The notes below the pieces were generated by a model. It worked only from the letters and a program-made list of their open reading frames with translations, did no database searches and was not told where the DNA came from. A program made the position numbers and the translations under genes. A stretch of DNA of 64,000 bases from an uncultured Dehalococcoidia bacterium (GTDB taxonomy: Bacteria > Chloroflexota > Dehalococcoidia > SHYB01): positions 10,858 to 74,857 of the forward strand of contig CAZKTO010000004.1 in NCBI GenBank assembly GCA_964555685.1, given 5' to 3'. Below are positions 1,023 through 62,768 of this stretch, one piece after another. Numbering within the stretch: the first letter of the stretch is position 1; each line of letters opens with the position of its first letter.

Positions 1023-3605
1023 TCAGCTCAGCCAGAACGTGGAGCCCTCGGGCGTCCGCTCGACCTCGATGCGGGTGGGGAACTGCTCCTTGAGCTCGTC
1101 GATGTGGGTGATGACGATGATGCACGCGAAGTCGTCGCGGATGGCGTTGATGGCCTCGACGACCTTGTCGCGCCCGGCCGGGTCCTGGGTGCCGAAGCCC
1201 TCGTCGATGAAGAGCGTCGGCAGGGGGGCGCCGGCGCGCCGCGCCAGGAGGCGTGAGAGGGCGATGCGCAGGGCCAGGTTGATGCGGTAGGTCTCGCCAC
1301 CGCTGAAGGTCTCGTAGCTGCGGGTGTACTCCCCATCGTGGATGGCGATCTCCAGCGTCTCCTTGACGCCCTCCTTAGTCTTGTAGCCGGTCTGCGTATC
1401 GAGCTTCACGTGCATCCGGTTGTCTGTCATGCGGCCCAGGAGCCGGTTGGCCTCGTCCTCGATCTCCGGCAGGGCCGACTCGATGATGAGGGCCTGGAGA
1501 CCGCGGCCGCCGAAGGCGGTGGCGAGCTCGTCGTAGACGCCCAGCTCGTCGGCGGCGCGGGCGAGGCTCTCGCGGCGGGCGGCCCACTCGCGCTGGCGCT
1601 GATCGAGGAGGTCGAGGTCGCGGCGGGCGGCGCCCAGGGCCTGGCGCAGGCCGCCGGCCTGGGCCGAGGCGTCGCCCTGGCGCGCCTCGGCGGCCTCGAG
1701 CTCCCGCGCGATGGCCGGGAGGGAGGCGGTCTCCCGGGCGAGTCTCTCGGCATCGGCGCCCAGCCGCGAGGCCTCGGCGTCCAGGCGCTCGAGCTCGTCG
1801 TGGGCGTCGTGGAGGGCCGTCCGGTCCTGGGGGAGCCGGCGGCGCGCCTCGTCCAGGGCGCGGCGCCGCTCCTCGAAGGGCTGGAGGCGCACCCGCTCCG
1901 ACTCGGCGGCCTCGTGGGCCGCTCGGTCGTAGGCGAGGGCGGCGATGGCGGCCGTCACCCCCTCGAGGGCCTGCTGGTCGTCGCGAGCGAAGGCGCCCTC
2001 GGCGTGACGCCCGCGGGCCTCGGCGAGGGCGGCCTCGGTGCGCGGGAGCCCTTCCTGGGCTTGGGCGGCATCGCGGGCGGCGACCTCGCGCTCGGCGACG
2101 CGGGCCTGCAGCCGGGGCCGCTCGGCGCGGAGATGGGCCTCCAGGTCCCGGAGCTCGCGCTTGACGCGCGCCTCTGCTTCCTGGAGCCCTTGCTCCTCCG
2201 CTTGGTTCGCCCGGTGGGCGGCGGCCCGCTCCTCGCCCTGGCGCTGGTAGTCGGCGAGGACGTGCTCGCAGCGGTCCTGGCCCAGGTCGGTGCTGCAGAG
2301 GGGACAGGTCCCGTGGCCGGCCCGCAGGCGCTCCATATTCGCCTTGACCTGGTCCATCTCCTGGCGGAGCTGGTCGTTGGCGGCGCGCAGGCCGGTGGCG
2401 CGGATGAGCGCCGCCTCGGCCTCGCCTCGGAGGGTGGAGAGGCGCTGCTCGGAGGCGTCGAGGGCGGCGAGGGCCTCGCGGGCCTGGGCGAGCTCGGCGG
2501 AGAGGGCAGGGAGGGCCGAGGCCCGGTCCCGGGCATCGCCGAGCCGCGATTCGATGAGGCGAGCCTGGGTGGCGAGCTCGGCGCGCCGCCGCTCGATGGC
2601 GCGCTCCAGGTCGTTCTTGCGATGGACGAGGTCGAGGTAGGCCCTGGCGGCGGCATCCAGGCGCTCCTTGCGGGCGCGGGCGTCCGTCAGACGGCGGTGG
2701 CCATCGGCGATGGCGTCTTCCTCGGCGAGGACGGCCTCGGCGGCGGCCACATCGCGCTCCAGGGCAGCGGCCCCTGAGCGGAGGCGCCCGGTCCGCGGGC
2801 CCAGATCGGCCAGGCGGTGGCGGGCGTCGTCCAGCATGGCCTGCTTGAGGGCGAGGGCGTCGCGAGCGGCGCGGCGCTCCCGGGCCAGGGCCTGGGCGGC
2901 CTCGAGCTCGGCCTGGGCGGCATCGAGCGCGCGCTGGACCTCGGTGGCGCGGGCCTCGTACTCGGGGCGGCGGGCGAGCTCGGCCTCGTCCTCGGCGATG
3001 CGCTCCTCGAGGGCGTGGCGCTCGGTGCGCAGGCGCCGGGCCTTCTCGCGGGCGCGCTCCTCCAGACGGTCGTAGTAGGCGAGGTCGAGGATCTCGGCCA
3101 GCACCTGCTTGCGCTGGTCCGGCGGCTTGAGGGTGAACTCGTCGGCCCGGCCCTGGACGAGGAAGGCGCTGTTGGTGAAGGTCTTGTAGTCCATGCGCAG
3201 GAGCTCGATGATCTTACGCTGGGTCTCGCGGACGGTGTTGGCGGTGATGGGCCGGTAGGGCTCATCCGGCGGCTCCGCCCCGGTGGCGGCGTGGAGCTCG
3301 AGGACGGTCTTGCCGGCCCGTCGGCCCGCCGAGCGCTCGCGCTTGCGGACGACCCGGTAGCGATGCCCGCGGGCCAGGAACTCCAGCTCCACCTCCATCT
3401 CATCGCGCCCCAGGTTGATCAGGTCGTCGTCGGAGCGGGCGCGGGCCTCGCCCCAGAGGGCCCAGGTGATGGCGTCCAGGAGGGCCGATTTGCCGGCGCC
3501 GTTGGGGCCGCACAGGCAGGCGATGTGGATGTTATCCAGGAGGAGCGGCGGGACGTTGTCCCGGTAGCACATGAAGTTGCGGAGCCGGAGCTTGAGGGGG
3601 ATCAT
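1023..3605 (-). CDS. sbcC: SbcC/Rad50-family SMC-like ATPase (double-strand-break/hairpin nuclease subunit)
   Basis: N-terminal Walker A (CGPNGAGKSALLDAITWALWG), a very long Ala/Glu/Arg coiled coil with a central CxxC zinc hook (GTCPLCSTDL), and C-terminal signature/Walker B (FSGGETYRINLALR...LFIDEGFG). Start taken at MIPLKLRL (ATG at 3605). No sbcD is adjacent. Confidence 0.85.
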   Translation of the reverse strand: MIPLKLRLRNFMCYRDNVPPLLLDNIHIACLCGPNGAGKSALLDAITWALWGEARARSDDDLINLGRDEMEVELEFLARGHRYRVVRKRERSAGRRAGKTVLELHAATGAEPPDEPYRPITANTVRETQRKIIELLRMDYKTFTNSAFLVQGRADEFTLKPPDQRKQVLAEILDLAYYDRLEERAREKARRLRTERHALEERIAEDEAELARRPEYEARATEVQRALDAAQAELEAAQALARERRAARDALALKQAMLDDARHRLADLGPRTGRLRSGAAALERDVAAAEAVLAEEDAIADGHRRLTDARARKERLDAAARAYLDLVHRKNDLERAIERRRAELATQARLIESRLGDARDRASALPALSAELAQAREALAALDASEQRLSTLRGEAEAALIRATGLRAANDQLRQEMDQVKANMERLRAGHGTCPLCSTDLGQDRCEHVLADYQRQGEERAAAHRANQAEEQGLQEAEARVKRELRDLEAHLRAERPRLQARVAEREVAARDAAQAQEGLPRTEAALAEARGRHAEGAFARDDQQALEGVTAAIAALAYDRAAHEAAESERVRLQPFEERRRALDEARRRLPQDRTALHDAHDELERLDAEASRLGADAERLARETASLPAIARELEAAEARQGDASAQAGGLRQALGAARRDLDLLDQRQREWAARRESLARAADELGVYDELATAFGGRGLQALIIESALPEIEDEANRLLGRMTDNRMHVKLDTQTGYKTKEGVKETLEIAIHDGEYTRSYETFSGGETYRINLALRIALSRLLARRAGAPLPTLFIDEGFGTQDPAGRDKVVEAINAIRDDFACIIVITHIDELKEQFPTRIEVERTPEGSTFWLS

Positions 3606-3691
3606 GGCCTGCTCGGGGTGGTGACAAAGACGAACGCGGGGCGATTGTAGCACGGGCCCAACCCCGCCCCGACAAGTCGGGGTGCGCTGCC

Positions 3692-3744
3692 GCCCTCTCC
3701 CCCTGCCCCCTCTCCGGATCGGAGAGGGGGCAGGGGGAGAGGGC
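3692..3744. repeat. Perfect palindrome with 25-nt arms and a 3-nt centre (GCCCTCTCCCCCTGCCCCCTCTCCG gat CGGAGAGGGGGCAGGGGGAGAGGGC)
   Basis: Checked base by base. It lies in the divergent gap between sbcC and the mutase gene. The arm sequence is related to hairpin 1 of the type-A repeats. Confidence 0.95.
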
Positions 3745-3968
3745 AGGACCCCGCCGCTTGTAACCTGTCAGGGCGCTTTTAGGGGAGCGAGTCGGAGGGA
3801 GGGGGCCAAACCTGTTGCACCGGCCCTCCTTCATTGACACTCCTGCGGCCCGTTGGTAGACTAGCCCCAGCACCAGCCCTTCTCGATCATCGCCGGCCTC
3901 TTCCGGTCGCGGGCGACGCGCGGAGGGCGAGGAATCGCGGGGCCACCGGTCCAACGCTAGGGGGCCGA

Positions 3969-8688: not shown

Positions 8689-8869
8689 ATCGGCAGCAAA
8701 CTCCTCATCGCCACCACGAACAAAGGCAAGCTCCGCCCCCTTTGTGTCATTGCGAGGAGTCCCGATGCAATCGGGACAGAGCCTGCCCCGAGTCTTTCCG
8801 AGGGGTGGCAATCTCGGCCGTCGTCATGCTGAAACTTCTCATCGCCACCACCAACAAAGGCAAGCTCCG
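8686..8869 (+). repeat. ~50-bp direct duplication of the rdgB 5' end (8686..8735 and 8820..8869) bracketing an 84-bp CATTGCGAG-type hairpin insert (8736..8819)
   Basis: AAACTCCTCATCGCCACCACGAACAAAGGCAAGCTCCG versus AAACTTCTCATCGCCACCACCAACAAAGGCAAGCTCCG (36/38 identical), plus weaker similarity over the 12 nt upstream. Confidence 0.85.
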
Positions 8870-11494: not shown

Positions 11495-11644
11495 CCCAGA
11501 ACCTATTGCAAAACGAGTCGGTGAGCCCAATCGCTGTCACCCTGAGCCCGTCCCCGGGCGAAGGGTCTGGGGTGGGGAACCTCCCCCAAGCCCCAGATTC
11601 TTCGCCTAACGGCTCAGAATGACACTTTTGCAACCAGCACTAGC
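11495..11644 (-). mobile_element. ~150-bp hairpin MITE with CTAG..GGTTGCAAA termini (copy 1, reverse orientation)
   Basis: Its reverse complement aligns along its length with 50366..50543 and 19558..19700. The internal long imperfect hairpin is GTCATTCTGAGCC..GGCGAAGAATCTGGGG / CCCCAGACCCTTCGCC..GGCTCAGGGTGAC. Confidence 0.8.
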
Positions 11645-19560: not shown

Positions 19561-19700
19561 AACTGGTTGCAAACGTGTCATTCCGAGCCGTCAGGCGAGG
19601 GGTCTGGGGAGGGGAGGTCCTCCCCTCCCCAGACCCCTCAGCCGCAGACGGCCTCGGGGTGGCAGGGACTCGGCCGTTTGGCGAGTTTTGCAATGGGTTG
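19558..19700 (+). mobile_element. CTAG..GGTTGCAAA hairpin MITE, copy 2 (more diverged; contains a 43-nt perfect palindrome at 19597..19639)
   Basis: TAGAACTGGTTGCAAACGTGTCATTCCGAGCCG...GAGTTTTGCAATGGGTT. Its first TAG is the amidohydrolase stop codon. Confidence 0.75.
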
Positions 19701-19714
19701 CAGTACTCAGTCAC

Positions 19715-19991
19715 GGTAGATTTGAAAGACCGACTGTGCAGTTCTCACTGCCCTCTCCCCCGTCCCCTCTCCGACACGGAGAGGGGCGCTCCGTATTCCC
19801 CCTTCCCTCGCAGGGAAGGGGGCTAGGGGGTTAGGGCCGAGGCACGGTGGATTTGAAAGACCGACTGTGCAGTTCTCACTGCCCTCTCCCCCGTCCCCTC
19901 TCCGACACGGAGAGGGGCGCACCGTATTCCCCCTCCCTCGCAGGGAAGGAGCCAGGCGCCGTCCTGAGCCTGCCGAAGGAGGGTTAGGGCC
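19715..19991 (+). repeat. Tandem duplication of a ~131-bp unit, each unit being a 33-nt flank plus a type-A element (cores 19748..19838 and 19879..19991)
   Basis: GGTAGATTTGAAAGACCGACTGTGCAGTTCTCACTGCCCTCTCC... repeats at 19846 with 1 mismatch in the flank. Unit 2 carries an extra GCCAGGCGCCGTCCTGAGCCTGCCGAAGGAG segment that is also present in the 34003 copy. Confidence 0.9.
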
Positions 19992-22841: not shown

Positions 22842-23561
22842 ATCCTGGGCGTCTTCGCCCACCCGGACGACGAGACCTCCGGCGCTGGCGGCACCTTCAC
22901 CAAGTACGCCCGCCTGGGCGTGCGGGTAGCCGTCGCCACCGCCACCCGCGGCGAGCAGGGACACCTGGGCACCGGCGGCCTCGCCATCGCCCGCGAGGAC
23001 CTGCCCACCGTCCGCGAGCGCGAGCTCCGCTCGGTCCTCCGCCTCTACGGCGCGCGGCCGCCTGTGCTCCTGGGCTACCGCGACCAGGAGGTGAAGGACG
23101 CCGGCTTCGAGGAGATCGTGGGCCGCGTCCTCGCGGCCATGGCCAAGGCGAGGCCCGATATCGTCATCACCTTCGGGCCCACGGGCATCTCCGGCCACGA
23201 CGACCACATCGCCGTCCACCGCGCCACCGTCGAGGCCTTCCACCGCTATCGCCGGTCCCGTCCCCAGAGGGACGAGAGCTCGCCGCGCCTCTTCTACGTC
23301 GCCATCCCCAAGGACCTGGCGAAACGGTTCGGGCTGGACCTGGATGGGCCCGAGACGGAGCCCCACGTCATCGTGGACATCAGCGACACGGCGGCGGTGA
23401 AGGTCCGGGCGCTCCGGACCTACCGGTCGCAGGAGGACGCCCAGCGGCTCGCCGGCCTCTTCGAGCAGCGCGCCCCAAAGATAGAGGCCTTCCACCAGGC
23501 CTACCCGGCGGCGCCCAACGGCCAGGTGCGCGGCGGCTTCTGGGACGAGGACACGGCCTGA
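22842..23561 (+). CDS. PIG-L/LmbE-family deacetylase; start codon unresolved
   Basis: ILGVFAHPDDETSGAGGT..., ITFGPTGISGHDDHIAVH. No ATG/GTG/TTG lies in frame between the crotonase stop and the conserved AHPDDE motif, so the coordinate is the in-frame ATC/CTG just before it. Confidence 0.7.
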   Translation: MLGVFAHPDDETSGAGGTFTKYARLGVRVAVATATRGEQGHLGTGGLAIAREDLPTVRERELRSVLRLYGARPPVLLGYRDQEVKDAGFEEIVGRVLAAMAKARPDIVITFGPTGISGHDDHIAVHRATVEAFHRYRRSRPQRDESSPRLFYVAIPKDLAKRFGLDLDGPETEPHVIVDISDTAAVKVRALRTYRSQEDAQRLAGLFEQRAPKIEAFHQAYPAAPNGQVRGGFWDEDTA

Positions 23562-23616
23562 CCCGGCGCTCAGTCAACTTGATTCTTTGAATCGTGGCAG
23601 AGATGGCTTGACTACT

Positions 23617-24047
23617 CCCTCGTCGTTGCGAGGGCGTCTTCGCCCGTGGCAACCTGGTGGGGTGGCGGCGGCCTGCCTGGGCTGAGGAAGGCGGGGAATG
23701 GGCAAGACCTTCTTTGTGTACATCATGACCAACCCCAGGAAGACCGTGCTCTACACCGGTGTGACGAATGACCTCGCCCGCCGTGTCTATGAGCACAAGG
23801 AGAAACGTGCCCCCGGCTTTGCCTCACGGTACAACGTGACGGACCTTGTCTATTATGAGGTGGCCGAAACCGCCGAAGCTGCCATTGCCCGCGAGAAGCA
23901 GGTGAAGGCAGGCTCTCGTCGGCGCAAGATCGATCTCATTCGGAGGATGAACCCGGCCTGGCGGGACCTGAGCGGTGAGTTGTGAGGGCCCCGCCACCCC
24001 ACCAGATTGCTTCGCCCCGATGATCTCGGGGCTCGCAACGACGAGGG
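23617..24047 (+). mobile_element. 431-bp cassette: GIY-YIG ORF bounded by ~52-57-bp imperfect terminal inverted repeats (23617..23668 and 23991..24047)
   Basis: The left end reads CCCTCGTCGTTGCGAGG...CTGGTGGGGTGGCGG. The reverse complement of the right end reads CCCTCGTCGTTGCGAGC...CTGGTGGGGTGGCGG. The outer 16 nt and inner 15 nt are identical. Confidence 0.6.
23698..23985 (+). CDS. Small GIY-YIG nuclease-superfamily protein (UPF0213-like)
   Basis: FFVYIMTNPRKTVLYTGVTNDLARRVYEHK...LVYYE...A.AREKQVK. Confidence 0.85.
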   Translation: MGKTFFVYIMTNPRKTVLYTGVTNDLARRVYEHKEKRAPGFASRYNVTDLVYYEVAETAEAAIAREKQVKAGSRRRKIDLIRRMNPAWRDLSGEL

Positions 24048-24134
24048 GGTGCCGCTTTACGGGCGGATAGGGTTCGGAACTGAATCTTAACTATTCAACA
24101 AACTAACGTGACTGAGTACTAGAGGGTCGGGGCC

Positions 24135-24737
24135 CTACACCGTCAGATCGAACGCCTGGATCACGCCGTCCACCATCAGCCGGACCGCGATGGCCGCCAG
24201 CAGCAGGTTCGCGATCTTGGACATGGCGCGCAGGCCGCCCTTGCCCAGCACCGCCGTTACCACGTCCGCGAACCGGAAGATCAGCCACGCCGCCGCGATG
24301 TTGGCGACGAACGCCAGGGCCACGGCGCCGTCGCCATAGCGGTCCGAGAGGAGGAGCAGCGTCGCCAGGGTGCCTGGCCCCGCCGTCAGCGGCGTGCCGA
24401 TGGGCACCACCGCGATCATCTCCCGCCGGTCGGGCACGTCCACGAGCCGCCCGCCCACCAGGTCCCTGAGCGCCAGCGCCAGGAGCACGATTCCCCCGGC
24501 GATGGCGAAGTGGTCCACCTCGATGTCCAGCAAGTCCAGGACGGCCTGCCCCAAAAAAAGGAACGCGAAGCCCAGGACCGTCGCCGTCGCCAGGGCGATG
24601 TTGATGAGCCGCATGCGCTCCTTGGGCGCCGAGCCTTCCAGCAGGCCCAGCACGATGGGCAGCGTGCCGATGGCGTCGATGGCCACCAGGAGCGGCACGA
24701 ACGCCAGCAGGAACTCCTTGCCGAACCCCTCGCTCAA
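24135..24737 (-). CDS. MarC-family (UPF0056) integral membrane protein
   Basis: LLAFVPLLVAIDAIGTLPIVLGL... with multiple TM segments. Start guessed at in-frame TTG 24737, because the longer ORF overlaps the CoA-transferase gene. Confidence 0.75.
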   Translation of the reverse strand: MSEGFGKEFLLAFVPLLVAIDAIGTLPIVLGLLEGSAPKERMRLINIALATATVLGFAFLFLGQAVLDLLDIEVDHFAIAGGIVLLALALRDLVGGRLVDVPDRREMIAVVPIGTPLTAGPGTLATLLLLSDRYGDGAVALAFVANIAAAWLIFRFADVVTAVLGKGGLRAMSKIANLLLAAIAVRLMVDGVIQAFDLTV

Positions 24738-46578: not shown

Positions 46579-46640
46579 CAGACGTTTGTGTGGGCTGGAG
46601 ATTGCCATGTCCGCCTGCGGCGGACTCGCAATGACAGGGG
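46579..46640 (+). repeat. Solo copy of the GAGATTGC...GGACTCGCAATGAC hairpin repeat (related to the right TIR of the GIY-YIG cassette)
   Basis: CAGACGTTTGTGTGGGCTGGAGATTGCCATGTCCGCCTGCGGCGGACTCGCAATGACAGGGGG, to be compared with 50107..50174 and 24003..24047. Confidence 0.65.
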
Positions 46641-50106: not shown

Positions 50107-50174
50107 CAGAGGTTTGTGCGGGCTGGAGATTGCTTCGTCCCGACTCGTCGGGACTCGCAATGACGAAAAGGGGG
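50107..50174 (+). repeat. Solo copy of the GAGATTGC...GGACTCGCAATGAC hairpin repeat
   Basis: CAGAGGTTTGTGCGGGCTGGAGATTGCTTCGTCCCGACTCGTCGGGACTCGCAATGACGAAAAGGGGG. Confidence 0.65.
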
Positions 50175-50365: not shown

Positions 50366-50543
50366 CTAGAACTGGTTGCAAAGTAGGGGCGGGTCTCAGA
50401 CCCGCCCCTACGATAGTGTCATTCTGAGCCGCTAGGCGAAGAATCTGGGGAGGATGAGGCCGCCCCGCCCCAGACCCTTCGCCCGGGGACGGGCTCAGGG
50501 TGACAAGGTTGGGCTCGCTCGTTCGTTTTGCAATAGGTCCTAG
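50366..50543 (+). mobile_element. CTAG..GGTTGCAAA hairpin MITE, copy 3 (carries an extra nested GTAGGGGCGGGTCTcaGACCCGCCCCTAC hairpin)
   Basis: CTAGAACTGGTTGCAAAG...GTCATTCTGAGCCGCTAGGCGAAGAATCTGGGG...CCCCAGACCCTTCGCCCGGGGACGGGCTCAGGGTGAC...CGTTTTGCAATAGGTCCTAG. The terminal CTAG holds the stop of the next gene. Confidence 0.8.
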
Positions 50544-50857: not shown

Positions 50858-51194
50858 GATGGACCTCCGTGTGGAACAGTGTGGCCGGTACGCCGGCGTG
50901 CACGATGGTAGGGATAGCGCCCGTCCTTGTCAATGCGGGGCGCCCCGCTCGCAGGGTCGTTCGGTTGTCCTGGGAACCCTTTCTTGACAGAAAGGTGTTC
51001 CCAGACCCTCCCAAAGAACCTTAGGCGTGGAGGAGCGAGGGGGGTGGGCCCCCAGGGCCCACCCCCCTCGCTCCTCCACCTCTAGAGTTTTCTGGAAGGG
51101 GCCTGGGGAAAGCCTCTTTGTCAAAAGAGGTTTCCCTAGAATAATCGAAGGGCCTTGGCCCCGCTCGGACTGGCCCGCCTGCGGCGGGCGGCGC

Positions 51195-62464: not shown

Positions 62465-62768
62465 ACTCTGAGCCCCGACGTGTCGGGGCGAAGAATCTGG
62501 GAGTGGGGTGGGGTTCTCACTCCCCTCTGCTCTGGAAGGGCCCCGCCCCAGATGCTTCGTCGAGGACTCCTCAGCATGACAGGGGCCAGCGGGCTCGTTG
62601 ACCGCACTGGTGTATGAATTAGGCCCTCTTGACAATTCTCCGGCGTTGTTGCAAACTTGATTTGAGACTAGTTCAAAACCGGGTCTGCATTCCGCGTACG
62701 GAGCGGCGCCAGCGACTCTCTCGGGTCCGCGGCGCCTGCGGGATGCGGCACCCACGGAGGAGGATCGC

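What the first reader, a model, noticed from the sequence alone, without database searches (positions are those of the whole stretch)
23617..24047. GIY-YIG gene packaged between ~55-bp inverted repeats whose solo copies are scattered through the window
The 95-aa GIY-YIG ORF is bounded by imperfect TIRs. The outer 16 nt (CCCTCGTCGTTGCGAG) and the inner 15 nt (CTGGTGGGGTGGCGG) are identical in inverted orientation. The right TIR (CAGATTGCTTCGCCCCGATGATCTCGGGGCTCGCAACGACGAGGG) is clearly homologous to the solo hairpin repeats at 46579..46640 and 50107..50174, and in reverse to the insert in front of rdgB (8736..8819). This is the relationship expected between an autonomous element and its MITEs. 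Small UPF0213-type GIY-YIG proteins are not established as transposases or homing enzymes of such repeats.
Basis: partly seen in the sequence, partly recalled or inferred. Interest (0 to 1): 0.6.

Follow-up and report, generated by a model that had tools for sequence, protein, structure and literature searches.

The report
Ssn nuclease gene with hairpin repeats
The small GIY-YIG gene between inverted hairpin repeats is a new example of the recently published Ssn system, in which a tiny nuclease cuts single-stranded DNA next to its own hairpin repeat; here it is also packed inside a 560-bp transposon-like unit present in several copies.

Summary
A 95-aa GIY-YIG gene (23698..23985) lies between inverted hairpin modules. 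The 16-nt and 15-nt blocks are exact, and related solo hairpins are scattered through the window.

The pairing is already published as the Ssn/SRM system (Chenal et al. 2025, PMC11893778). The protein is 52% identical to the NTS-flanked 94-aa SsnA orthologue of Neisseria gonorrhoeae. The hairpins keep the determinants that paper mapped: GTC before the stem, ATT...AAT stem ends, and C plus YRG after it.

All roughly 9 ssn copies in this 3-Mb genome (an earlier scan note places it in Chloroflexota), in four protein families, carry such flanks. Stem letters covary and the hairpin type tracks the protein tree.

Three things go beyond the paper:
- The repeats escape the paper's search pattern.
- The cassette sits in a larger unit (23563..24122) with outer inverted ends and CTAG flanks. 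The unit occurs 3-4 times, and gene-less mini-elements share its ends.
- Some solo hairpins are bracketed by 19-37-bp target duplications.

Mobility is likely, but no empty site was found. The outer layer looks like an IS5-type MITE, so Ssn need not be the transposase. Verdict: new member of a known kind, moderate interest.

The parts
23563..24122 (.). Whole repeated unit (about 560 bp). It fills the gap between the convergent PIG-L-family (LmbE-like) gene (stop codon at 23559-23561) and the MarC-family gene (stop codon at 24135-24137).
   Evidence: Copies on G000 contigs C21 (96%) and C38 (85%) align from about 23568 to 24049/24126 and then diverge. C30 holds a rearranged, frameshifted copy.
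23563..23595 (+). Left outer terminal inverted repeat: a decayed CTAG-NN followed by CTCAGTCAACTTGATTC...
   Evidence: Inverted-repeat pair I2 (27 nt, 74%). The same terminus occurs at least 19-27 times in the genome, usually preceded by CTAG.
23622..23654 (+). Left SRM hairpin, GTCGTTGCGAG-GGCG-tctt-CGCC-CGTGGCAACC, with the cleavable orientation on the top strand.
   Evidence: The fold gives an alternative pairing. The architecture is supported by covariation.
23654..23668 (+).
   Evidence: Exact inverted copy at 23991-24005. It corresponds to the AATC-YRG tail of the published NTS.
23698..23985 (+). ssn gene: a 95-aa single-domain GIY-YIG nuclease.
   Evidence: Pfam PF01541 at E 7.6e-16. 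AlphaFold2 pLDDT 90.7. The best fold matches are GIY-YIG proteins 1zg2, Slx1 and UvrC-N. It is 52% identical to the NTS-flanked 94-aa ORF of N. gonorrhoeae. dN/dS among paralogues is 0.16-0.38.
23991..24005 (-). G-rich 3' tail of the right SRM, read on the minus strand.
24005..24042 (-). Right SRM hairpin, GTCGTTGCGAG-CCCCGAG-atcat-CGGGG-CGAAGCAATC, with the cleavable orientation on the bottom strand.
   Evidence: Predicted ssDNA fold with an outer stem, an internal loop and a 7-bp inner stem.
24090..24122 (-). Right outer terminal inverted repeat, ending ...CGTGACTGAGTACTAG.
   Evidence: The same end is found on units with other hairpin types and on 152-267-bp gene-less elements.
46600..46635 (-). 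Solo SRM hairpin of the subfamily with tail CTCCAGCCC.
   Evidence: (z -2.2).
50128..50164 (-). Solo SRM hairpin of the same subfamily.
8746..8813 (+). Composite double-hairpin SRM inserted in the 5' end of rdgB.
11596..11623 (-). Solo SRM of the ATTCT/AGAAT type (GTCATTCTGAGCCGTTAGGCGAAGAATC).
50418..50445 (+). Solo SRM of the ATTCT/AGAAT type.
62551..62580 (-). Solo SRM of the ATGCT/AGCAT type.

Best explanation
This is an Ssn/SRM cassette.

**What the parts are.** The 95-aa protein belongs to the Ssn family of single-domain GIY-YIG nucleases. The flanking ~35-nt modules are its cognate Ssn-related motifs (SRMs).

**How the nuclease most likely works.** By analogy with the characterised Neisseria, N. 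elongata, N. wadsworthii and Wolbachia enzymes (inferred here, not shown), the protein binds the hairpin only when the DNA is single-stranded, for example during replication, repair or DNA uptake. It reads the GTC just 5' of the stem and the C just 3' of it, and cuts a few nucleotides upstream. The two flanking SRMs are inverted. The cleavable strand is therefore the top strand at the left end and the bottom strand at the right end, and both cuts fall just outside the cassette.

**What is shown for this genome.** Four Ssn protein families coexist, each with its own covarying SRM type, together with about 80 SRM hairpins. This is a REP/RAYT-like nuclease-plus-repeat population.

**How the unit spread in this genome (inferred).** The cassette has been built into a 560-bp unit with ~30-bp outer inverted ends and CTAG flanks. 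This whole unit most likely spread to its 3-4 sites as a non-autonomous IS5-type MITE moved by a transposase acting in trans. Ssn itself probably did not move it. Separately, spread at the SRM level leaves 19-37-bp target duplications, and its mechanism is unknown.
For: **Homology**
- The protein is 52% identical (44/85, no gaps, E 1e-31) to a 94-aa GIY-YIG ORF of N. gonorrhoeae that has 8 NTS copies within 1 kb.
- It is only 29% identical to E. coli YhbQ.

**Fold and residues**
- The AlphaFold2 model has pLDDT 90.7 and a GIY-YIG fold.
- Y8, Y19, R29, H33 and E54 are invariant in 12 homologues.

**DNA determinants**
- The published NTS is CGTC-ATTCCC..GGGAAT-CYRG. The GTC governs cleavage and the C after the palindrome governs binding.
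- The modules here read (C)GTC-ATTSN..NSAAT-CTGG.

**Association**
- All 9 full ssn copies and the 2 short fragments in the genome have inverted SRM flanks.
- Both sides carry an SRM in 42 of 70 metagenomic loci and 37 of 78 named-genome loci. At least one side does in 61 of 70 and 69 of 78.

**Structure**
- Outer-stem pair 1 is Watson-Crick in 76 of 82 modules against 40.7 expected, with both G:C (33) and C:G (43) forms. Pair 2 is Watson-Crick in 66 of 82 against 35 expected.
- SRM type changes 3 times on the Ssn tree; the minimum in 1000 label shuffles was 7.

**Excess**
- The strict SRM pattern gives 39 hits against 0 for the reversed control.

**Selection**
- dN/dS is 0.16-0.38.

**Outer layer**
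- Unit boundaries are sharp in C4, C21 and C38.
- The termini CTAG|TACTCAGTCA occur at least 27 times, including on 152-162-bp elements with no SRM.
- The gene-less SRM doublets (M1) have CTNAG duplications.
- An 834-bp IS5-family IS flanked by CTAG is present in two 99.2%-identical copies.
Against: - No biochemistry exists for this protein.
- The published degenerate SRM search pattern does not match these hairpins: 0 hits in the window and 29 in the genome, with no shuffle control run.
- Single hairpins fold only modestly better than shuffles (z -1.0 to -2.2).
- No empty site or presence/absence polymorphism was found. The only other contig with this locus also carries the unit, and the held relatives are other genera without synteny at this site.
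- No transposase with matching ends was found in this 94%-complete assembly. The trans-mobilisation step is therefore an inference.
- Some relatives carry many SRMs with only a fragment or a divergent GIY-YIG gene.
Confidence: 0.78

Rival explanations
1. The unit is an autonomous mobile element whose only protein, the 95-aa GIY-YIG nuclease, mobilises both itself and the gene-less hairpin elements. It would do so by cutting at the hairpins in single-stranded DNA, with host repair or replication completing the move.
For: - The gene sits between inverted cognate sites, and the predicted cuts fall just outside both ends.
- The units are multicopy at 85-96% identity in unrelated contexts.
- Gene-less derivatives exist: inverted SRM doublets with a ~30-nt spacer in place of the gene, and solo arms.
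- The ssn units are the only coding elements found with these termini.
- A relative, G023, holds 22 copies, many with stop codons, which looks like a decaying selfish family.
- Homologues at 56-68% identity occur in more than 15 phyla.
- Solo SRMs carry 19-37-bp flanking duplications, which look like real insertion events.
Against: - GIY-YIG enzymes hydrolyse DNA and are not known to perform strand transfer (established knowledge of the superfamily).
- Elements with the same outer termini but no SRM have also spread (C82, C90, C14), so the end-recognising activity is not SRM-specific.
- The closest metagenomic relative (86% aa) lacks the outer ends.
- No empty site was found.
- The characterised Neisseria role is restriction of transforming ssDNA, not transposition.
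Confidence: 0.15
2. The gene and repeats are a domesticated host system with no current mobility. Ssn would restrict or process incoming or replicating single-stranded DNA at SRM sites, as proposed for Neisseria. The copies in this genome would be old duplications.
For: - The experimental role in N. meningitidis is modulation of natural transformation.
- The paralogues are under purifying selection.
- SRMs lie mostly between genes, at gene ends.
Against: - Copies are 96% identical with sharp ends at unrelated loci.
- Truncated and frameshifted copies exist on C30, C68 and C2.
- Distribution among relatives is patchy.
- Gene order breaks at exactly this intergenic gap in other genera.
- Identity across phyla exceeds 60%.
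Confidence: 0.2
3. The hairpins act as RNA elements, such as terminators, stabilisers or regulators of the small gene's transcript, and are not DNA sites.
For: They flank a gene and form stem-loops. G-T appositions in the right-hand stem would be tolerated in RNA.
Against: - There is no T-tract after the stems and no terminator call.
- There is no Rfam match.
- The two copies are inverted, so one transcript would carry two different strands of the motif.
- The invariant letters are exactly those needed for ssDNA binding and cutting by SsnA, which does not act on RNA.
- Most copies are solo and far from any ssn gene.
Confidence: 0.04

Closest known systems
Ssn nucleases with NTS/SRM hairpin repeats (SsnA of Neisseria meningitidis; Chenal et al. 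2025, Nat Commun 16:2388, PMC11893778)
   Same: - A single-domain GIY-YIG protein of about 94-95 aa, 52% identical to the gonococcal orthologue.
- The gene is flanked on both sides by inverted hairpin repeats with GTC-ATT...AAT-C-YRG.
- Many solo copies occur in the genome.
- Protein and repeat types are inherited together.
   Different: - The stems here are bipartite (a 4-5-bp outer stem, an internal loop, then a 5-13-bp variable inner stem) and start ATTGC or ATTCT rather than ATTCCC. They escape the published search pattern.
- Four cognate pairs share one genome.
- The cassette is nested in a 560-bp unit with outer inverted ends and CTAG flanks.
- There is no functional data for this organism, which is not known to be naturally transformable.
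REP/REPIN sequences with RAYT transposases (REPtrons)
   Same: - One small nuclease gene is flanked by inverted copies of a hairpin repeat that is also scattered in tens to hundreds of solo and doublet copies.
- Recognition is of folded single-stranded DNA.
- Doublets resemble REPINs.
   Different: - RAYTs are HUH/Y1 enzymes that form covalent intermediates.
- This protein is a GIY-YIG hydrolase with no known strand-transfer chemistry.
IS5-family insertion sequences (IS427/IS1031-type) and their MITEs
   Same: - Outer terminal inverted repeats.
- CTAG or CTNAG at both flanks.
- 150-270-bp gene-less relatives share the termini.
- An 834-bp IS5-family IS with CTAG flanks lives in the same genome.
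   Different: - The unit carries no transposase.
- Its termini (GTACTCAGTCAAC) differ from those of the resident IS (GGTTCTGTTGACATTG).
- Its cargo is a nuclease with its own recognition sites.
UPF0213 proteins (E. coli YhbQ; B. halodurans BH0048, PDB 1zg2)
   Same: About 95-100 aa, single-domain GIY-YIG. 1zg2 is the best structural match (Foldseek E 2.8e-4).
   Different: Only 26-29% identity. YhbQ is a single-copy gene; no flanking hairpin repeats are known to me for it, and its flanks were not examined here.

Membership tests
Ssn / SRM system (Chenal et al. 2025) | Single-domain GIY-YIG protein of about 94 aa | tested here: met
   The protein is 95 aa. PF01541 covers residues 5-77. The AlphaFold2 model has pLDDT 90.7 with a three-strand-plus-helices fold. 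The top PDB fold matches are GIY-YIG domains.
Ssn / SRM system (Chenal et al. 2025) | Homology to Neisseria SsnA (the paper's criterion is tblastn E < 1e-10) | tested here: met
   tblastn E 8e-15 in a 7.3-Gb database. Pairwise: 52% identity, E 1e-31. The subject is the 94-aa ORF of N. gonorrhoeae with 8 NTS copies within 1 kb. That this ORF is the SsnA orthologue is inferred from its length and NTS context. The N. meningitidis sequence itself was not on hand.
Ssn / SRM system (Chenal et al. 2025) | Assignment to CDD family cd10448 | not testable with these tools
   No CDD library is available. NCBIfam gave no hit.
Ssn / SRM system (Chenal et al. 2025) | Conserved GIY and YIG tyrosines and metal-binding Glu | tested here: met
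   Y8, Y19, R29, H33 and E54 are invariant in 12 homologues. Mapping them to catalytic roles follows general knowledge of GIY-YIG enzymes.
Ssn / SRM system (Chenal et al. 2025) | Hairpin repeats flanking the gene on both sides in inverted orientation | tested here: met
   The same holds in 42 of 70 and 37 of 78 related loci.
Ssn / SRM system (Chenal et al. 2025) | Repeat carries GTC 5' of the palindrome, ATT...AAT stem ends, and C (then YRG) 3' of it | tested here: met
   The features are present in both flanks and in about 80 genomic copies.
Ssn / SRM system (Chenal et al. 2025) | Match to the published degenerate SRM search pattern | tested here: not met
   0 matches in the window and 29 in the genome, with no shuffle control run. 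The pattern requires YY after GTCWY and a short continuous stem. This is a limit of the search pattern, not of the biology.
Ssn / SRM system (Chenal et al. 2025) | Genome-wide excess of solo repeats | tested here: met
   39 strict matches against 0 for the reversed control. 78-82 hairpin modules by a looser scan.
Ssn / SRM system (Chenal et al. 2025) | Site-specific cleavage of ssDNA only, upstream of the repeat | not testable with these tools
   This needs the purified protein and oligonucleotide assays.
RAYT / REP | HUH-Y1 (IS200/IS605-like) transposase | tested here: not met
   The only Pfam match is GIY-YIG.
IS5-family MITE | Terminal inverted repeats with CT(N)AG target and short duplication | tested here: inconclusive
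   The inverted repeats and the CTAG/CTNAG flanks are present. Without an empty site, a duplication cannot be told apart from element ends.
IS5-family MITE | A cognate full-length IS with the same ends | tested here: not met
   No pair of these termini encloses a transposase. The DDE_Tnp_1 genes in the genome have other ends. The assembly is fragmented and 94% complete.
Free-standing GIY-YIG homing endonucleases (I-TevI, Seg) | A separate DNA-binding domain, with double-strand cleavage of a gene-less allele | tested here: not met
   The protein has 95 aa and consists of the catalytic domain only. Cleavage was not testable.
UPF0213 (YhbQ/BH0048) | Close sequence relationship to YhbQ | tested here: inconclusive
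   29% identity over 78 aa. The best fold match is 1zg2. The protein is much closer to SsnA (52%).

The most novel reading that the evidence does not exclude
The SRM-ssn-SRM cassette, and the solo SRMs bracketed by 19-37-bp target duplications, may be products of a transposition-like process driven by the 95-aa GIY-YIG ssDNA nuclease together with host replication or repair. That would be a class of prokaryotic mobile DNA outside the DDE, HUH, serine and tyrosine transposase classes. In this genome it would have additionally hitch-hiked on IS5-type MITE ends.
Probability: 0.15. Interest if true: 0.8.

Novelty: new member of a known kind. Interest (0 to 1): 0.36.

Why it matters
Ssn enzymes are the only known site-specific nucleases that cut single-stranded DNA exclusively, and each enzyme-repeat pair is a potential molecular tool. 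This genome offers four co-resident pairs with readable recognition sites, including a bipartite-stem variant that the published search pattern misses. Surveys based on that pattern may therefore undercount the family.

The authors of the Ssn paper noted that the gene-between-repeats layout looks like an insertion sequence, but they left mobility open. This genome provides concrete test objects:
- near-identical 560-bp units;
- gene-less doublets;
- solo hairpins with long target duplications.

It also carries a caution. Part of the apparent mobility may belong to an unrelated IS5-type layer.

Tried and rejected
- Rfam scan of the window: no family matched.
- NCBIfam: no hit.
- PDB sequence search: no hit.
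- The published SRM pattern does not match these repeats.
- Empty-site search:
  - Relatives in the held genomes belong to other genera. The two flanking genes are not adjacent in them.
  - The only other contig encoding the identical protein has the same arrangement.
  - Exact look-ups of the two neighbouring proteins found nothing.
- Boundary mapping from pairs of related metagenomic cassettes was uninformative, because the hairpin interiors differ.
- Search for a transposase with the unit's termini:
  - No pair of termini is spaced like an IS.
  - PF13359 is absent.
  - The PF01609 genes have other ends.
- Promoter and terminator scan of the unit found nothing useful.
- Phage collection: no homologue.
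- Literature searches for GIY-YIG with MITE or inverted repeats found only eukaryotic or organelle cases. No follow-up paper on Ssn mobility was found.
- The idea that TGAcTGAgtacTAG at the ends is a designed three-frame stop was dropped, because the other terminus families lack it.

Full report
**Observation**

The window holds a 95-aa ORF at 23698..23985 (+) that matches Pfam GIY-YIG (PF01541, E 7.6e-16). It is bracketed by inverted repeats.
- CCCTCGTCGTTGCGAG lies at 23617-23632, with its exact reverse complement at 24032-24047.
- CTGGTGGGGTGGCGG lies at 23654-23668, with its exact reverse complement at 23991-24005.

The elements at 46600-46635, 50128-50164 and 8746-8813 carry the same module, GTCATTGCGAG-hairpin-GCAATC. 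Three more copies with other stem letters lie at 11596, 50418 and 62551.

**The whole genome**

The window is C4:10858-74857 of a 3.03-Mb, 68% G+C, 170-contig assembly. An earlier scan note places it in Chloroflexota; I did not check this.

tblastn finds 9 full GIY-YIG copies and 2 short fragments, in four families:
- C4, C21 and C38 at 87-100% identity, plus a frameshifted C30 copy;
- C50, C70 and C99, with fragments on C68 and C2, at about 53% identity to the window copy;
- C31 at 49%;
- C83 at 48%.

Every copy is flanked by inverted hairpin modules, and the stem letters differ between families:
- GATTGC...GCAATGAC;
- GATTCA...AGAATGAC;
- GGATTCT...TGAATGAC;
- GGATTCCGAG...CTCGGAATGAC.

A scan for GTC-ATT...AAT-C modules with an internal stem finds about 80 copies. 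A strict pattern gives 39 hits against 0 for the reversed control.

**What it is**

That paper shows the following.
- SsnA of N. meningitidis is a 94-aa single-domain GIY-YIG protein. It binds the NTS repeat CGTCATTCCCGCGMAVGCGGGAATCYRG only as single-stranded DNA and cuts a few nucleotides upstream.
- The three nucleotides before the palindrome (GTC) govern cleavage. The C right after the palindrome governs binding.
- 71% of ssnA homologues have at least one related motif (SRM) nearby, and 42% have one on both sides.

The modules here are the same thing read on the other strand: CYRG-ATT..AAT-GAC(G).

I tested membership directly. A tblastn search of the plasmid collection hit two N. gonorrhoeae chromosomes filed there. 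The matched locus encodes a 94-aa ORF surrounded by 8 NTS copies within 1 kb. The window protein is 52% identical to that ORF (44/85, no gaps, E 1e-31). It is only 29% identical to E. coli YhbQ, the UPF0213 type member.

The AlphaFold2 model (pLDDT 90.7) has the GIY-YIG fold. Its best PDB matches are 1zg2 (a UPF0213 protein), Slx1 and the UvrC N-terminal domain. Y8, Y19, R29, H33 and E54 are invariant in 12 homologues.

The one feature not met is the paper's degenerate SRM search string, which finds none of these repeats. The stems here start ATTGC or ATTCT and are bipartite: an outer stem, an internal loop and a variable inner stem.

**Evidence that the hairpin and the pairing are functional**

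- The first outer-stem pair is Watson-Crick in 76 of 82 modules (40.7 expected), with both G:C (33) and C:G (43) forms. The second pair is Watson-Crick in 66 of 82 (35 expected).
- The 82 modules use 46 different inner-stem arms.
- Single hairpins are only modestly more stable than shuffles (z -1.0 to -2.2), so covariation carries the argument.
- On a tree of 88 Ssn proteins, the adjacent SRM type changes 3 times. No label shuffle out of 1000 gave fewer than 7 changes.
- The paralogues are under purifying selection (dN/dS 0.16-0.38).
- The family is very large and widely spread:
  - the top 80 genomic hits are 56-68% identical and lie in more than 15 phyla;
  - an SRM lies on both sides in 42 of 70 and 37 of 78 loci, and on at least one side in 61 of 70 and 69 of 78.

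**A second, outer layer**

Alignment of the C4, C21 and C38 copies shows that similarity starts at ...CTCAGTCA(A/T)CTTGATTC (23569) and ends at ...CGTGACTGAGTACTAG (24122). It does not start and end at the hairpins. The unit is about 560 bp and fills the gap between two convergent genes.

The termini CTAG|TACTCAGTCA...TGACTGAGTA|CTAG occur at least 27 times in the genome. They bound gene-less elements of 152-267 bp. Some of these contain inverted SRM doublets (C32:25488-25641), and some contain no SRM at all (C82, C90, C14).

The second ssn family sits in about 610-bp units with ends GAGCCTATCCGAAAACC next to CTNAG.

A roughly 190-bp gene-less element occurs in 6 copies. It has two inverted SRMs about 30 nt apart between the ends GAGAGTGTGTGAGAAG. 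Its flanks repeat CTNAG: CTAAG/CTAAG and CTCAG/CTCAG.

The closest metagenomic relative (86% aa) has SRM-ssn-SRM but no outer ends. Most other relatives have inverted arms of only 35-75 nt. The outer layer is therefore specific to this lineage.

CTAG and CTNAG flanks with inverted ends are what I know from IS5-family elements. An 834-bp IS with a frameshifted DDE_Tnp_1 gene and CTAG flanks is present twice at 99.2% identity. Its ends (GGTTCTGTTGACATTG) differ from the unit's, however, and no transposase with matching ends was found.

Elements without any SRM share the termini. The activity that recognises the termini is therefore unlikely to be Ssn. I infer that the 560-bp unit spread in this genome as a MITE-like passenger. 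This is an inference.

**Signs of insertion at the SRM level**

The rdgB insert lies between two copies of the gene's first ~12 codons (a 37-bp repeat). Three other solo SRMs are bracketed by direct duplications:
- 27 bp at C8:36218, which includes the stop codon of the upstream gene;
- 27 bp at C75:10513;
- 19 bp at C67:5463.

For comparison, 5 of 500 random control positions showed a repeat of 18 bp or more.

Long, variable duplications are not what DDE transposases leave. They hint at a different insertion route, possibly at single-stranded gaps.

**Distribution among relatives**

Of 30 related genomes, 11 have an ssn match at E <= 1e-5.
- SRM-rich genomes mostly have one.
- G028 has 46 SRMs and only a weak, divergent GIY-YIG gene without SRM flanks.
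- G026 has 220 SRMs and only a 41-aa fragment plus a weak match.
- G023 has 22 ssn hits, many with stop codons.

This mirrors REP/RAYT dynamics, in which the repeats outlive the gene.

**Mechanism**

- *Shown elsewhere and inferred here:* Ssn binds the folded SRM in single-stranded DNA and cuts just 5' of GTC.
- *Follows from the sequence:* with inverted SRMs, the top strand is cut at the left edge and the bottom strand at the right edge of the cassette.
- *Unknown:* whether these cuts serve restriction of incoming ssDNA (as in Neisseria), maintenance or homing of the cassette into SRM doublets, or transposition.

I put about 0.78 on the Ssn/SRM identity together with the layered reading, and 0.15 on Ssn itself being the mobilising enzyme.

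**Verdict**

The finding is real, but the core biology was published in 2025. It is a new member of the Ssn/SRM kind with some unreported features:
- a bipartite SRM variant;
- four cognate pairs in one genome;
- nesting in CTAG-flanked MITE-like units;
- long target duplications at solo copies.

Interest is moderate.

Noticed in passing
window 8698-8869: A 37-bp direct duplication of the rdgB start (AAACTYCTCATCGCCACCACSAACAAAGGCAAGCTCCG) brackets the 95-nt SRM double hairpin. The downstream copy carries the working ATG, so the gene stays intact.
   Followed up: partly
G000 C8:36190-36300, C75:10470-10600, C67:5400-5540: Three more solo SRMs lie between direct duplications of 27, 27 and 19 bp. 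The C8 case duplicates the last 8 codons and the stop codon of the upstream gene. Such long, variable duplications are unusual for bacterial transposons.
   Followed up: partly
G000 C90:5845-6026, C76:8020-8201, C29:5175-5356, C16:23492-23673, C16:~3306-3800, C24:32289-32467: A ~190-bp gene-less element has ends GAGAGTGTGTGAGAAG and CTNAG on both flanks. It encloses two inverted SRMs about 30 nt apart, like a REPIN or an ssn unit that lost its gene.
   Followed up: partly
window 19700-19715; G000 C82:149-305, C90:4027-4183, C14:25200-25361, C32:25488-25641, C9:14468-14670, C35:8877-9143: A mosaic MITE family of 152-267 bp has termini CTAG|TACTCAGTCA...TGACTGAGTA|CTAG, with at least 27 termini in the genome. 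The interiors differ: some hold SRMs, others hold unrelated CCCCCGTGACGGGGG hairpins. Read outward, the terminus TGAcTGAgtacTAG has stop codons in all three frames.
   Followed up: partly
G000 C21:1179-2012 and C21:24714-25547: Two 99.2%-identical copies of an 834-bp IS5-family insertion sequence. It carries a two-frame DDE_Tnp_1 transposase and the ends GGTTCTGTTGACATTG, and is flanked by CTAG on both sides.
   Followed up: partly
window 23563-23697 versus G000 C38 and C21 copies: The 130-nt left arm of the unit is 97.6% identical between the C4 and C38 copies, while synonymous sites of the gene differ by dS 0.40. The arm is either under strong constraint or homogenised by gene conversion.
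   Followed up: no
window 50956-51020 (G000 C4:61813-61877) and at least 10 other contigs: An unrelated ~80-nt repeat, GGGTCGTTCGGTTGTCCTGGGAACCCTTTCTTGACAGAAAGGTGTTCCCAGACCCTCCCAAAGAACCTTAGGCGTGGAG, is present in at least 11 near-identical copies.
   Followed up: no
relative genome G023 (many contigs): There are 22 matches to the Ssn protein. Many have in-frame stop codons or lie at contig ends, which looks like a burst followed by decay.
   Followed up: no
G000 C99:4990-5259: One copy of the second ssn family has Asp in place of the GIY-motif tyrosine (YYVDIM against YYVYIM in its paralogues), so it is probably inactive.
   Followed up: no
PLSDB records NZ_CP119140.1 and NZ_CP119142.1: Two 2.17-Mb N. 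gonorrhoeae chromosomes are filed as plasmids in the plasmid collection, with almost no annotation.
   Followed up: no
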